A DNA stretch of 64,000 nt from Eledone cirrhosa (Eukaryota). The notes under the pieces were generated by a model. The model ran no database searches, had not been told where the DNA came from, and saw only the letters and a list, made by a program, of their open reading frames with translations. The translations under genes were made by a program, and so were the position numbers. Shown one piece after another: positions 50,352 through 55,300 of this stretch (position 1 is its first letter; the number at the start of each line of letters is the position of its first letter). The stretch lies in assembly GCA_964016885.1 (NCBI GenBank), contig OZ024749.1, positions 39,370,001 to 39,434,000 on the forward strand, in the 5' to 3' direction.

Positions 50352-52335
50352 ACGAAGGAAATGTGGTAAGGAACCAGGTGGACCATAACGCACCAAAGTA
50401 CTCAATACTTAGGGTAGTAGAGTGGGTAATAGGAACAAGTAAGACCCCGGGGTCTTACTTGTTCCTATATATATATATATATATATATATAACACAAGTA
50501 AGAAGTAACTATCAAATACATACAAACACACAGGTAACTGTAGATTTACACACACACACACACACATATATATATAAACCATTTATATTGCATGGTTTAC
50601 CAAAGGGTAGAACTGGTCATTCTGGTTAGTAAAGCATTATTAGAAAACATTGATAATAAATATTTCTACATCTTCACATACAGTACAACATTATAAGAGA
50701 AACTAAACATTAGAAATAGCAACAAAGTCTTACCAAGCTACAGGTAGTAGGTTGTCATCTTGTCCAAGATCAGCACAGTATTGTATGAGAGGCCGATAAG
50801 GATGATAAAGAACTAAACAACAATCCTAAAAAAAGAAAAAAACAACAGAAATATATATATATATATAAAAATTTGACAAGATTCTAATTAACCCTTGATA
50901 TCAACCTCCCTGAAACTATCCCAGGTTCTATGATACAAAACTACCTATTTTTAATCATTTATATTATATTAAAACTGTAACATAATTTTATAAGTGAACT
51001 TTTTTCTTAAATAATGAACTTCAGTTGTGTCAAAGACATGACAATCTTCCGAGTATTGGTGATCTACATGATAAATGAACCCAGTACACTTGGTAGAGCG
51101 TTTGATGACAGGAAGGGCATCCAGCTTGCCAAACAAGGGTTGGGAGGACCCTTCAGTTGTGTCAAAGACATGACAATCTTCCGAGTATTGGTGATCTACA
51201 TGATAAATGAACCCAGTACACTTGGTAGAGCGTTTGATGACAGGAAGGGATTCCAGCTTGCCAAACAAGGGTTGGGAGGACCCTTCAGTTGTGTCAATGA
51301 CATGACAACCTCTCTAATGCTCGATTCACAACAAAATGTGGGAACATATATAAATGAGATGCAGGCACTCAGCTCATCTGAGAAGTCAGTAGCCACACCT
51401 GAGCACTGATTTGGTCTGTGAAGACCTGTCCAACCCTTGATAGCAGGGAAAACATGTTATATGATGATGATAATCATGATTTCTTTATTAACCACAAGGG
51501 TTTACATAAAGTAGACATTAAGGACAGTGCAGGACAATGCAGGACGGTACAAATGGGCATTTCTGCGTGTAAAAAACAAAAACAGAGGATGTAACAAAAA
51601 TAACAATGAAAATAACAATGAAAAATTCCCCAATAGGGGGGAGACTTCGGAGGGACATTTGTGGAGAAAGCCCAGTAAAAAGCCACAATGGTAATGAAAA
51701 GGATAAACTGTTAGATAGAAAATTCATAAAAATAAGTTACAATCTGAAAACAAAATAATTATTAAATGGAAATTAATTGTGATTGTTAAAATGGCTGAAA
51801 CTTTACTCACCATCATTTCTAATAAATAAAACTCACACTCTAAAACACTATTTATACGATAAGGATATTCTTGGGTGTAAGCATGAGAGAACTTGGTTTT
51901 CACTGAAATGAAAAATAAATGAAATAATGAGATAATTATTAGAAAAACATTTTTTATTTTATTTGATAATGATAATTATATGTCAAGTTTAAAATATAAA
52001 TACCTGATCTAATGTTTTTCTTTGTCTTCCCCAGCCTAACTCAGTAAACTGAACCAGCAAACTGATCATTGAGCCTCTGTTTCTCTCAGTTTTCCCCAGC
52101 CTAAATCAGTAAACTCAACCATTGTTTAAGCTTGGTAATGTTGAGTAGCTCACTGATAAAAGGAAAGTTAGCTGGTAAGAGAAGCAATGGTTGACGGCCA
52201 AATCGCTGGCTTGATAATGTCAACTTATGGATTGGACTTGACCTTTAAACTCTGCTAATGGTGATCGAACTTTGTGGAGAAGAATATCTCATGTTGATGC
52301 ACAGTCTGCAACAGGCAGAGTGAGCATCTAGAAAG

Positions 52336-52374
<39 letters not shown>

Positions 52375-55300
52375 TACAAACATATAACATATAGTTGATA
52401 CTTACCAACATTTTGACAAGTGGTCATTAATTTATTATTTGATATTACTCCAAATTCCTGTTTATAAAAGAAAAAAAATAATGATTTAGCAAATACATTT
52501 GAAATTATCAAGAGAGAAAGTAAATCCTAAATTTCATCATCCTTATTTTCTTTTTTTTCTTTCCATACTGGTATAAAATGAAAAGGTGTGTAGAACAGCA
52601 TCTCTCCAGAAGTTTCAATTCTGTATTTAATTAATTATTTTAATCAAAGACTTCATTGATCTATTGCTATCACAACTACCTTTCCTTGCCAAACCATTTA
52701 CCATGCATTATCCATTTATACAACATTTCCATATAAATAGAGTCGTCTTTTACACTTAAAGTAGTCAAATAATACTAATTCTTTACTCAGCTCATTTGCA
52801 AGAATGTCTGGCTAATGCAGTTTCATATGATGCAGGACATTAAAAGTTAATAAGCAACAATTAAGTAAAATCATTTGACTTCATTGATAAGGAAATAGAA
52901 ATGAATGGAATGATTAACCAGAAGTACACTGACCTCAACTTTGGAAGCTAAAAAAATACATGTTGGCGCCATTAACCATGGATCAATAGATCGGAGGGAA
53001 TTCCTGAAAATAAAGAAATTACAGACATCAAATAAAATTGTCCAATGTGTCAATAATAAGAGAAATAGCATTGAATGTATTCAATTTTTTGAGTCAAACT
53101 AGGAAATTTATGTTTTGATAAATGGTTTGGAAAAGGGATTAAAAATGTGAATGATATTTTAATAATTTATTTCTAGGATATAATTACATAAATGTTCAAC
53201 AATTTTGAAACTAACCTGAAACTACCTCTTAAATAAAAGGAATCTATTTTACAAAAAGAAACAAAAAAATAACACTGTAAAAAATATTATCCCAAATGTA
53301 TGTATGGACCCTTGATTGGGATACCATATTGGCATGCAGTATGTCTTGGGTATTTTAAACATGACAGTGGCCATTACTGTTTCTTTTTTAAATTTGTTTA
53401 ATTCTTTTTTTTTTTTTTTTTTATTAACCTCCAAGAAAATGAAAGCCAAAGTTGACCTCAGTGAGGTTTGAATGCAGAGAGTCGGAATGAAAACCGCAAA
53501 GCTTTCTATTGAACGTTTTAACAAATCTCACTACTTGCTGCCTCATTATCCCAATTACAGAAGTAATATATAATTACCTTGCATAAAATCTCTTGAAATA
53601 CACAGTAGCTGATGCTATAACTTGTTGCCGCATCTTCAATTGTTCTCCTAATGCCTGGATAACTGGGGAGAAACAAATAATAGCTGCAGAATAGCTCTTA
53701 AAACAGAAAGCAATAAAAATAGATAAGATCATCATCATCATTTAACATTTGTTTTAAGGGTTGGATGGGTCATCACAGACTACAAAATTAAATACACAAC
53801 CTATATCATCCAATTTTGAAAATTTGAAAAGTTTAATGAGTTTACTAACATTTTTTTTTGATGTCAAAACATCACTTAACAAAAATTTTTTAAATAAAAT
53901 TATGATGGAAGGTTTTATGAACATTTCAAAATGAGCAGCAGTTTTGTATCATAGAATCTTGGATGGTTTCAGGCACAGGTTGGTATTAATGGTTAATTAT
54001 TGTAGGATTGTTGTTTAGTTCTTTATCATCCTTATCGGCCTCTCATACAATACTGTGCTTGGACAAGATGACAACCTACTACCTGGAGCTTGGTAAGACT
54101 TTGTTGCTATTTCTAATGTTTAATTTTTCTTATAATGTTGTATTGTATCTGAAGATATTGAAATATTTATTATCAACGTTTTCTAATAATGTTTAGTTTC
54201 TCTTATAATGTTGTATTATATGTGAAGATGTAGAAATATTTATTATCAACGTTTTCTAATAATGTTTAGTTTCTCTTATAATGTTGTATTATATGTGAAG
54301 ATGTAGAAATATTTATTATCAACGTTTTCTAATAATGTTTAGTTTCTCTTATAGTGTTGTATTATATGTGAAGATGTGGAAATATTTATTATCAACGTTT
54401 TCTAATAATGTTCAGTTTCCTTTATAATGTTGCATTGTATGTGAAGATATAGAAATATTTATTATCAACCTTTTCTAATAATGTTTAGTTTTTTTACTTA
54501 TAAGGTTGAATTATATGTGAAGATGTAGAAGTTTCCTTCTAATGATGAGGCTAAGTCGACTCTAATAACAGAGTTTCTGCCCCTTGCTTTCCTGAAACTA
54601 TAAAACTATTTCCAGTTATAACATAAGTATTATTACCACTTCGCAGAAAAACTAATAAATATGTTATATGTAGTGGTAGATTGGCAGAAGTAGTAAAGCG
54701 TTGATAAAATGCTACTGTGGCATTTGTTCTTTATATTCTGAGTTCAGCTTTGCCTTTCACCCTTCGAGGGGGGGGGGGGGTCAATAAAATAAAATACCAG
54801 CCAAGTACTGGGGTTAATTTAATCAACTTTGTCCTTCCTCTAAAATATGTTGACCTTGTGTCTAAATTAGAAGTAAGTTATAATGGTTTCTGATTTAGGT
54901 ACTAAGCCAACAATTCTTTGGGAAAGAGAAAGTCAGCTAAATCGTCCCCAGTGCATTACTGGTACTTTATTTTATCCACCCAGCACGGATGAAAGGCAAA
55001 GCTAACCTCAGCAGCATTTGAACTCAGAACACAAAGGGACGTAACTCTGTGCCGTAAAGCATGTCCGACGCTCTGCCGTTACTGCCAATCTACAGCAGTC
55101 AGTTATAATGACGTATCATATACTTACAATTTGAATAAAAGACCATAATTTTCTGATATTCATCTTCACTGAGGACTTTCAGATCAGCTTGCCTTTCTCT
55201 GAGTATATCTTGGCGGTCCAACAACCACTGTTGGCTAAATATGACAGATTAGAACATACTGAATAGTTGAAACTACAAGAATAAAATTTAATCAAAACTG

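What the first reader, a model, noticed from the sequence alone, without database searches (positions are those of the whole stretch)
50640..54530. Cyclin C intron 2 contains an antisense copy of its own exon 7: a built-in dsRNA/editing or splicing switch
Seen: 54003-54190 is a near-perfect reverse complement of exon 7, its 5' splice site and ~95 nt of intron 7. Further homology (53938-53998 vs 50886-50945) lies in an adjacent MITE-like end. In the pre-mRNA these could pair over ~190 nt or more, looping out exons 3-6 and masking exon 7 and its donor. Known: intronic complementary sequences direct ADAR recoding, exon skipping and back-splicing, and coleoids edit heavily. Inference: a newly born editing-complementary sequence or circRNA driver, generated by template switching between homologous repeat ends. 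Skipping the 92-nt exon would frameshift.
Basis: partly seen in the sequence, partly recalled or inferred. Interest (0 to 1): 0.72.

Follow-up and report, generated by a model that had tools for sequence, protein, structure and literature searches.

The report
Backwards exon copy inside cyclin C
An octopus-type cyclin C gene carries, in its second intron, a decayed backwards copy of its own exon 7 that was likely pasted in during DNA repair at the end of a small transposon; it could pair with the real exon in the RNA, but the one transcript seen is spliced normally, so it is likely a tolerated by-product.

Summary
Window 53997-54194 is a 92% reverse-complement match to 50632-50834, which holds cyclin C exon 7, both its splice sites and about 100 nt of intron 7 (E 9.6e-78). 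The match is unique in the 3.0-Gb genome. A 5.7-unit, 73-nt tandem array made from the intron 7 part follows it.

The copy begins at the TTAA end of a 247-bp MITE in intron 2. A sister MITE in the opposite orientation ends 62 nt from the real exon 7. The last 59 nt of the intron 2 MITE resemble the sister MITE more than any other family member sampled, while its interior does not.

One contig of a related species joins exon 2 to the MITE with only 21 nt between, so it lacks the copy there.

The functional reading of an editing, splicing or circRNA switch is untested. The only RNA seen is one spliced contig, with exons 2-7 joined normally and no differing letter in exon 7. Long inverted pairs are common in this window. 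My verdict is a real, lineage-specific, probably neutral templated insertion of modest interest.

The parts
50734..50825 (-). Real cyclin C exon 7 (92 nt). The RNA contig aligns it as 50733-50824, a 1-nt ambiguity at a G.
   Evidence: E 7.7e-12 to human cyclin C residues 150-179.
50632..50945 (-). Source segment that was copied: the first ~100 nt of intron 7, exon 7, the acceptor, TTAA and the last ~55 nt of the intron 6 MITE.
50835..50885 (-). Spacer of 51 nt, rich in (TA)n and T, between the MITE end and the exon 7 acceptor. It is absent from the copy.
   Evidence: Alignment.
50888..51020 (+). Intron 6 MITE fragment: TTAA at 50888-50891 and the element from 50892. It is cut off at about 51020 by a 132-nt tandem repeat.
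   Evidence: 472 candidates in the genome, of which 40 were scored.
53742..53996 (-). Intron 2 MITE of the same family. The element is 53746-53992 (247 bp), with TTAA on both sides, 83 nt from the exon 3 acceptor.
   Evidence: 767 candidates, of which 40 were scored.
53938..53996 (+). Source-like terminal part of the intron 2 MITE, the likely entry point of the copied tract.
   Evidence: 49/57 identical to the source MITE, the best of 9 comparisons. The interior 53850-53937 is 62% identical to the source but 84% to L015.
53997..54005 (+). Junction: TTA, shared with the source flank, followed by an acceptor-like TTGTAG.
   Evidence: X1 contig 53888-54032 bridges it with 0 differences.
54006..54092 (+). 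Copy of exon 7, antisense to the cyclin C transcript. It is 87 nt, with 1 substitution and a 5-nt deletion.
54093..54550 (+). Copy of the donor site and intron 7 start, amplified into a 73-nt tandem array (TRF 54114-54530, 5.7 units).
   Evidence: X1 contig 54440-54797 bridges the array end into the flank.
54551..54737 (.). Single-copy intron 2 sequence to the right of the insertion. It has no other match in the genome.
   Evidence: no hits for query positions 1-207.
54738..55100 (.). Head-to-head pair of SINE-like repeats next to the exon 2 donor. It is absent from the relative's contig together with the copy.
   Evidence: 9720 candidates, 40 scored; record 19.
55128..55234 (-). Cyclin C exon 2.
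   Evidence: X4 record 9.
53578..53662 (-). Cyclin C exon 3 (85 nt). Exon 4 is 52934-53003, exon 5 is 52406-52457 and exon 6 is 51810-51902.
   Evidence: of three open-frame splice-site solutions whose three lengths sum to the 207 nt the RNA contig requires, this is the one I kept, judging by eye that it keeps an uninterrupted cyclin-like reading. Also.

Best explanation
Intron 2 of cyclin C holds a real, decayed, inverted copy of exon 7 plus about 100 nt of intron 7. It was likely written in when a break or stalled fork at the TTAA end of a MITE in intron 2 was repaired by copying out of a sister MITE 3 kb away in intron 6 and on through exon 7. It likely persists as a tolerated by-product and not as a regulator.

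Shown:
- The inverted match exists and is unique in the genome.
- Both partners abut the same terminus of one dispersed MITE family, in opposite orientation.
- The intron 2 MITE is mosaic, with a source-like terminal 59 nt and a foreign interior.
- The intron 7 part has been amplified into a 73-nt array whose inner units are identical and whose edge units are diverged.
- One contig of a related species lacks the segment.
- A spliced RNA contig shows normal exon 2-7 joining.

Inferred:
- The 3' end primed on the homeologous MITE end, synthesis ran about 250 nt into the foreign flank, and the strand then rejoined without homology.
- An 8-nt direct repeat (TTTCTAAT) that brackets the 73-nt unit in the source allowed slippage, and later unequal exchange built the array.
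- In the pre-mRNA the copy would be able to form a duplex of about 190 bp with exon 7 and its donor. Intron 2 can be removed before exon 7 is transcribed, and no consequence has been seen.
For: Match and uniqueness: (203 nt, 92%, E 9.6e-78; all 7 genome matches lie in this locus).

MITE family and termini. One search shows the right end ...GGG|TTAA, with TTAA at 6 of 10 aligned ends. Both the source and the copy carry TTAA followed by TTA, and both share a 2-nt shorter terminus that none of the 8 other members has.

Mosaic. In the last 59 nt, the copy MITE against the source MITE is 49/57, the best of 9 comparisons. In the interior 53850-53937, the source is the worst at 62%, while L015 and L017 reach 84% and 82%.

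Age. The intron part has 7/94 mismatches and the MITE end 8/57 (Fisher p 0.26, so one age is possible). The divergence between the two species is 123/1573.

Read support: X1 contigs bridge the MITE-to-copy junction (53888-54032, 0 differences) and the array-to-flank junction (54440-54797). X5 record 19 joins 55113 to 53973 with 21 nt between them. X4 record 9 is a normally spliced mRNA contig with 0 other letters in exon 7.

Array history.

Background: 17 other inverted pairs of at least 80 nt lie within 15 kb of each other in the same window. Filler insertions within 3 bp of DNA-transposon ends are described in rice (PMC5023962, passages read).
Against: - Only 8 of several hundred family members were compared, and they were the top hits of two searches, so the mosaic could be a subfamily effect.
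- The MITE-end identity (86%) is lower than that of the flank (93-99%).
- The relative's contig lacks 1139 nt, not only the copy. A deletion in the relative is therefore as possible as an insertion here, and the copy's absence before the split is not proven.
- X1 may be the assembly's own sample.
- The exon part is less diverged than expected under neutrality (1 substitution seen against 3.2-4.2 expected, P 0.08-0.17). This could hint at gene conversion or at selection for pairing.
- RNA evidence is a single majority-rule contig set from one sample. It cannot exclude partial editing, skipping or back-splicing.
Confidence: 0.6

Rival explanations
1. The copy is a working cis-regulator. It would pair with exon 7 and its donor in the pre-mRNA and so direct ADAR editing of exon 7, skipping of exon 7, or circularisation of exons 3-6.
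For: The predicted duplex is -346 kcal/mol against about -104 for shuffled arms. The geometry fits circRNA-type flanking complementarity: intron 2 pairs with intron 6 over 59 nt and with intron 7 over 81-100 nt, and there are six alternative registers in the array. The exon part of the copy is better kept than the intron part (1/87 against 7/94, Fisher p 0.066). Octopus edits heavily, mostly in introns and 3'UTRs (PMC9699675, passages).
Against: The spliced RNA contig shows normal exon 6-7 joining and no differing letter in exon 7. The mismatches give no excess of G.U-preserving changes in the cyclin C strand (3 of 7 in the intron part, against 2 of 7 for the other strand). The relative's contig lacks the copy at this place, so it is not conserved. 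CircRNAs are reported as low overall in octopus, and editing as rarely altering splice sites (PMC9699675). Intron 2 can be spliced out before exon 7, 2.9 kb further on, is transcribed (inference). Similar long inverted pairs are common here.
Confidence: 0.15
2. It is a plain segmental inverted duplication. A ~310-nt piece (50632-50945) was excised or copied and ligated by end joining into intron 2, with no role for repeat homology.
For: The source-to-copy homology covers one continuous source interval apart from the 51-nt spacer. The MITE-end identity and the intron identity do not differ significantly.
Against: The piece would have had to land exactly at the terminus of a same-family MITE and in register with it. 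The intron 2 MITE reads continuously against family members from 53786 to 53993 (L009 aligns over 53814-53993), and the relative carries that MITE up to at least 53973.
Confidence: 0.12
3. The exon was captured and moved by a transposon, through Pack-TIR-like capture, read-through transduction or alternative transposition using the two MITE ends.
For: Earlier notes of this scan report TIR elements carrying host exons in the same genome (not checked by me). The copy touches a transposon end.
Against: The exon copy lies outside the terminal TTAA, not between the inverted ends. The composite is single-copy in the genome. Outside the last 60 nt, the MITE next to the copy is unlike the source MITE, which excludes co-mobilisation of MITE plus flank. 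The copy contains intron, so it is not a spliced retrocopy.
Confidence: 0.08
4. It is an assembly artefact, such as a fold-back chimera or a mis-join.
For: X1-X3 may come from the sample that was assembled, so they are not independent. No listed contig spans 54032-54440.
Against: The copy has diverged from the source: a 5-nt deletion, 8 substitutions and diverged edge units. Short-read contigs match both outer junctions exactly. One X1 contig carries the copy's deletion plus its single substitution (record 2, my reading).
Confidence: 0.03

Closest known systems
Filler (templated) insertions left by break repair at DNA-transposon ends (rice; PMC5023962, passages read); short-range template switching and MMBIR-type templated insertions (PMC7954356, PMC8421209, listing and abstract start only)
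   Same: The insert is a copy of nearby sequence and begins within 3 nt of a transposon end. It is absent in a related species, and homology at one junction serves as the primer.
   Different: Here the template is reached through a sister transposon in inverted orientation inside the same gene. The copied tract contains a coding exon with both splice sites, and the transposon itself was not excised. The mechanism is inferred from anatomy, not observed.
Inverted intronic repeat pairs (IRAlus and Drosophila intronic repeats) that drive loop-out exon skipping, circRNA formation and ADAR editing (PMC2533698, 10.1101/2025.03.07.642063, PMC13019944, PMC4617980; listing and abstract start only)
   Same: There is long-range complementarity between two places in one pre-mRNA, a few kb apart, bracketing internal exons.
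   Different: One arm is not a repeat but the gene's own exon 7 with its acceptor and donor, so pairing would bury an exon and not merely bring introns together. No RNA effect has been seen here.
Intronic editing complementary sequences of ADAR targets, such as insect Syt1 (reviewed in PMC5705066, passages) and the distant intronic inducer of Gabra-3 editing (PMC3479170, abstract start only)
   Same: An intronic element is complementary to an exon of the same transcript.
   Different: Known ECSs are short, imperfect, conserved and tied to observed edited sites. This one is about 190 bp, is not present in the relative's contig, and has no observed editing.
Hairpin-RNA or MIRNA loci born by inverted duplication of their target gene (10.1101/682591, listing and abstract start only)
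   Same: An inverted partial duplicate of a gene creates complementarity to that gene.
   Different: Those loci are separate transcription units with adjacent arms. Here the second arm is the gene itself, 3.2 kb away in the same transcript.
TIR elements carrying host exons in this same genome (earlier scan note e1-9578849, unchecked)
   Same: A host exon fragment is associated with a cut-and-paste element in an octopus-like genome.
   Different: In our case the fragment lies outside the element's ends and is single-copy.

Membership tests
Templated (filler) insertion by break repair or template switching at a transposon end | The inserted tract is a copy of sequence present elsewhere, here nearby. 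| tested here: met
   203 nt at 92% to 50632-50834, 3.2 kb away and inverted.
Templated (filler) insertion by break repair or template switching at a transposon end | A junction lies within about 3 bp of a transposon end (the criterion used in PMC5023962). | tested here: met
   the MITE ends at 53992, TTAA is 53993-53996, and source-flank letters start at 53997.
Templated (filler) insertion by break repair or template switching at a transposon end | There is homology or microhomology at the entry junction between the recipient and the template. | tested here: met
   same MITE family, same terminus, source-like last 59 nt. Only 8 other family members were compared.
Templated (filler) insertion by break repair or template switching at a transposon end | The tract is absent at the orthologous place in a relative. 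| tested here: inconclusive
   one X5 contig lacks 53974-55112. It lacks more than the copy, so a deletion in the relative is not excluded.
ADAR editing complementary sequence (ECS) | It can form a duplex with the exon in the same pre-mRNA. | tested here: met
   in silico only.
ADAR editing complementary sequence (ECS) | A-to-I (read as A-to-G) changes are seen in the paired exon. | tested here: inconclusive
   the RNA contig has 0 other letters in exon 7. Contigs drop minority variants, and no raw RNA reads were available.
ADAR editing complementary sequence (ECS) | The element is conserved between species. | tested here: not met
   it is absent from the relative's contig at this place.
circRNA-promoting intronic complementary sequences | Inverted complementary sequences lie in the introns flanking the circularised exons. 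| tested here: met
   intron 2 pairs with intron 6 (about 59 nt, 85-86%) and with intron 7 (81-100 nt, 89-95%).
circRNA-promoting intronic complementary sequences | Back-splice junction reads are present. | not testable with these tools
   Only RNA contigs were available. None of the 15 joints shown is an exon 6>3 joint, and 1431 joints were not shown.
piggyBac-type MITE (TTAA target and CCC...GGG ends are recalled textbook features) | The element is flanked by a TTAA target duplication. | tested here: met
   TTAA on both sides of 53746-53992, and TTAA at 6 of 10 aligned right ends.
piggyBac-type MITE (TTAA target and CCC...GGG ends are recalled textbook features) | The terminal inverted repeats begin CCC / end GGG. 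| tested here: inconclusive
   the right end is ...AAAAGGG in most members. The left end CCCTTTTG is clear in only 2 of 10 (L010, L012), and the intron 2 copy is decayed.
piggyBac-type MITE (TTAA target and CCC...GGG ends are recalled textbook features) | The element is short, non-coding and present in many dispersed copies. | tested here: met
   472 and 767 candidates (40 scored each), with an element of about 250 bp.
Pack-TIR / transduplicated gene fragment | The captured host fragment lies between the element's terminal inverted repeats. | tested here: not met
   the exon copy starts after the terminal TTAA.
Pack-TIR / transduplicated gene fragment | The composite has been mobilised to more than one copy. 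| tested here: not met
   all matches lie in this one locus.

The most novel reading that the evidence does not exclude
This is the birth of an editing complementary sequence caught in the act. A transposon-primed repair event gave an essential, highly conserved Mediator cyclin a 190-bp antisense partner for one of its own coding exons. In a heavy-editing octopus, that partner now subjects exon 7 to ADAR hyper-editing, loop-out skipping or circularisation of the 300-nt exon 3-6 block in some tissues. The unusually well-kept exon part of the copy would reflect selection or ongoing gene conversion.
Probability: 0.12. Interest if true: 0.75.

Novelty: new member of a known kind. Interest (0 to 1): 0.35.

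Why it matters
It is a clean natural example of how repair at a transposon end can write a gene's own exon, backwards, into another intron of the same gene. That is the raw material from which exon-complementary RNA structures such as editing guides, splicing loops and circRNA drivers could arise.

A related species appears to lack the segment. The pair therefore offers a direct with/without comparison in animals known for heavy RNA editing.

It also carries a risk worth noting. Gene conversion from the copy, which has a 5-nt deletion, into the real exon would make a null allele of an essential gene.

As it stands, nothing shows that the copy does anything.

Tried and rejected
- **Sequencing runs.** No RNA holder was listed by the look-up of sequencing runs. 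X4, of unrecorded kind, turned out to hold a spliced contig.
- **Second lay of reads.** This leaves three things open: whether the relative holds the copy or array elsewhere, what covers 54032-54440, and any minority RNA forms.
- **RAD-seq run X6.** It gave depth 0-2 over the copy and is uninformative.
- **Earlier scan notes.** Searches near the place, in relatives and by words returned nothing.
- **Whole-window inverted repeats.** The repeat finder was swamped by microsatellites, so I replaced it with a dust-filtered self-BLAST.
- **Exon 3-5 boundaries.** The first search used ranges that were too narrow and found nothing. It was corrected.
- **A second MITE terminus at 54581-54611.** Only 10-11-nt matches were found, with E 0.13-0.5, so I rejected it as not significant.
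- **Retro-transduction.** Rejected because the copy contains intron, and because the adjacent MITE interior is unlike the source MITE.
- **Selection for pairing.** I looked for an excess of G.U-preserving mismatches in the cyclin C strand and found none.
- **Literature.** "cyclin C" + "A-to-I" + "cephalopod" returned 0 papers. Searches on an inverted copy of an exon in an intron listed Alu-type and disease duplications. None of the 15 and 12 papers listed, of 806 and 359 that held the terms, described an exon's own antisense copy in another intron as a regulator.
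Full report
**Observation.** The inverted match is real and far beyond chance. The repeat finder gives arms 50632-50781 / 54045-54194 (150 nt, 91%) and 50772-50834 / 53997-54059 (63 nt, 97%). A search of the window's own 3.0-Gb genome joins them into one 203-nt match at 92%, E 9.6e-78. All 7 reported matches lie in this locus, and both of the 2 first-look candidates were scored. Tandem Repeats Finder reports a 73-nt array, 5.7 units at 91% matches, at 54114-54530. 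Its unit is the reverse complement of 50640-50712 in intron 7.

**Gene context.** Cyclin C lies on the minus strand.
- Translation of 50733-50822(-) matches human cyclin C residues 150-179 at E 7.7e-12.
- Run X4 holds a 914-nt spliced contig that places exon 2 at 55128-55234, exon 6 at 51810-51902 and exon 7 at 50733-50824. That contig has no differing letter in any of these pieces.
- The 207 contig letters between exons 2 and 6 fit exons of 85, 70 and 52 nt at 53578-53662, 52934-53003 and 52406-52457. One search returned three open-frame splice-site solutions, and I kept this one because, by eye, it keeps an uninterrupted cyclin-like reading.
- Intron 2 is therefore 53663-55127 and holds the copy.
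- In the copy the exon part is 54006-54092 (87 nt), with one substitution and a 5-nt deletion. It is preceded by TTGTAG and followed by GTAAGA.

**What lies at the junction.**
- Window 50887-51018 belongs to a dispersed repeat with 472 candidates, of which 40 were scored at 74-88% identity.
- Window 53786-53998 belongs to the same family with 767 candidates, of which 40 were scored. Several genomic places hit both queries on opposite strands.
- I aligned the two local copies with 8 family members. The element ends ...AAAAGGG|TTAA, and TTAA is present at 6 of 10 aligned ends.
- The intron 2 copy is a 247-bp element, 53746-53992, with TTAA on both sides. The intron 6 copy starts at 50892 behind TTAA and is cut off near 51020 by a 132-nt tandem repeat.
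- The TTAA target and the CCC/GGG ends suggest a piggyBac-type MITE. That rule is recalled textbook knowledge, and the left end is clear in only 2 of 10 members, so the label is tentative. A repeat survey of Octopus vulgaris does list PiggyBac and MITE classes (PMC13282606, one table passage seen).
- The two MITEs are in opposite orientation. In both, the same terminus points at exon 7 sequence: directly in the copy, and across a 51-nt (TA)n/T-rich spacer in the source. After TTAA, both continue with TTA.

**Origin.**
- Direct homology between the two MITEs is confined to their last 60 nt, at 85%.
- In those columns the intron 2 MITE is closest to the intron 6 MITE: 49/57 identical with the fewest gaps, the best of 9 comparisons.
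- In its interior (53850-53937) the intron 6 MITE is the most distant at 62%, while L015 and L017 are closest at 84% and 82%.
- Both local termini also share a 2-nt shorter end that none of the 8 other members has.
- Such a mosaic is what a copied tract beginning inside the MITE end would leave. The inferred sequence of events is as follows. A 3' end at or near the intron 2 MITE terminus paired with the inverted sister MITE. The new strand then rejoined the broken partner without homology near 54550.
- The source carries TTTCTAAT at both borders of the 73-nt unit (output), which would let the strand slip and recopy. All five full units share two changes against today's source. Units 2 and 3 are identical, unit 4 has 2 private changes, and the edge units have 5 and 6. 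The array therefore kept growing in its middle after the event.
- Filler insertions that start within 3 bp of a DNA-transposon end are described in rice (PMC5023962, passages read). Template-switch insertions are described in apes and cancer cells (PMC7954356, PMC8421209, abstract starts only).
- Caveats: only 8 family members were compared, and they were the best hits of two searches. The 86% at the MITE end is lower than the 93-99% in the flank, though not significantly so (8/57 against 7/94, Fisher p 0.26).

**Read support and a relative.** The look-up of sequencing runs listed 8 runs. I laid four of them.
- X1 is organism A and may be the assembled sample. It has contigs that match 53888-54032 exactly, bridging the MITE-to-copy junction by 34 nt, and 54440-54797, bridging the array end into the flank with 1 other letter.
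- A 173-nt X1 contig lies on 50651-50828 with 1 other letter and 5 gap letters. That is exactly the copy's deletion plus its one substitution, set in source-like flanks. I read it as a graph chimera that took the copy's branch between shared 31-mers. This reading is an inference.
- No listed piece spans 54032-54440.
- X5 is organism B. In non-exonic pieces it differs from the window at 123 of 1573 aligned letters, or 7.8%. Its 1711-nt contig (record 19) is colinear with 52640-53973 and then, after only 21 letters, continues at 55113-55248 (exon 2).
- The relative therefore lacks 53974-55112 at this place. That interval holds the exon copy, the array, 187 nt of single-copy sequence and a head-to-head SINE-like pair.
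- The 21 letters are about what the MITE terminus plus TTAA would need, so the breakpoint again sits at the MITE end. Because more than the copy is missing, I cannot tell an insertion here from a deletion there.
- The copy-to-source intron divergence (7.4%) is about the same as the divergence between the species, so the event is roughly as old as their split. "Newly born" should be read in that light.

**Function.**
- In silico the two arms pair with -346 kcal/mol, against -104 ± 5 for 30 shuffles of one arm. This follows trivially from the sequence match.
The duplex would bury exon 7 with both of its splice sites and loop out exons 3-6, which total 300 nt.
- The evidence obtained does not show any of it. 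The single RNA contig set shows canonical joining of exons 2 to 7 and an exon 7 without differing letters. Contigs keep the majority form only, so partial editing, skipping or back-splicing remain possible.
- The 7 intronic mismatches include 3 that would keep a G.U pair in the cyclin C strand and 2 that would do so in the other strand, so there is no bias.
- The exon part of the copy is better kept than expected. One substitution was seen against 3.2-4.2 expected from the intron rate, P 0.17-0.08. This is suggestive at most, and equally compatible with occasional gene conversion from the real exon.
- In octopus, most editing is reported in introns and 3'UTRs, editing rarely alters splice sites, and circRNAs are low overall (PMC9699675, passages read).
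- Intron 2 can be removed once exon 3 is made, 2.9 kb before exon 7 is transcribed (inference).
- Long inverted pairs are ordinary here. A dust-filtered self-comparison finds 17 other pairs of at least 80 nt and 80% identity within 15 kb in this 64-kb window, up to 336 nt at 88%. What is unusual is only that one arm is an exon.

**Comparison with known systems.**
- It works like a templated filler insertion at a transposon end, and I file it there. Three features are met and absence in the relative is inconclusive.
- It resembles inverted Alu pairs and ADAR editing complementary sequences in potential only. For an ECS, editing is unobserved and conservation is not met. For a circRNA driver, the flanking complementarity is met but back-splice reads could not be tested.
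- It is not a Pack-TIR capture, because the fragment lies outside the terminal TTAA and is single-copy. Earlier scan notes describe such captures elsewhere in this "octopus-like" genome (unchecked). The organism label itself also rests on those notes.
- Searches for print precedents returned no cephalopod cyclin C editing paper (0 papers). Among the papers listed, none describes a gene's own exon copied antisense into another of its introns as a regulator.

**Verdict.** The structure is real, and its origin by repeat-primed templated repair is likely (about 0.6). A regulatory role is possible but unshown (about 0.12-0.15). It is a new member of a known kind and of modest interest, and it would become considerably more interesting if RNA-seq of the two species showed a difference at exon 7.

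Noticed in passing
window 51019-51308: A 132-nt tandem repeat (2.2 units, 98% matches) starts exactly where the intron 6 MITE fragment breaks off. I did not examine whether it belongs to the element or interrupted it.
   Followed up: no
window 54738-55100: A head-to-head pair of SINE-like repeats from a very large family (9720 first-look candidates) sits 28 nt from the exon 2 donor. The related species' contig lacks it.
   Followed up: partly
window 50651-50828 (run X1, record 2): A 173-nt short-read contig equals the real exon 7 region except for a 5-letter gap and one other letter, which are the two differences of the intronic copy. It is probably a graph chimera between the paralogous paths. 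If instead it were a real allele, it would be a frameshifted exon 7 made by gene conversion.
   Followed up: partly
window 2557-21518: There is a dense cluster of inverted repeat pairs of 110-336 nt at 80-92%, a few kb apart. Long potential dsRNA is commonplace in this region.
   Followed up: no
window 45774-46168: About ten tandem units of 38 nt show up as a ladder of identical 37-aa frames in the ORF list.
   Followed up: no
window 60700-62600: A compound (TA/TG/CA)n microsatellite of nearly 2 kb gives spurious open frames of up to 402 aa on both strands.
   Followed up: no
window 54581-54611: Short collinear matches (CCCTTG..CCTGAAACTAT..AAAACTATTT) to the MITE terminus lie just right of the array. 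Each is too weak (E 0.13-0.5) to call a second element end.
   Followed up: partly
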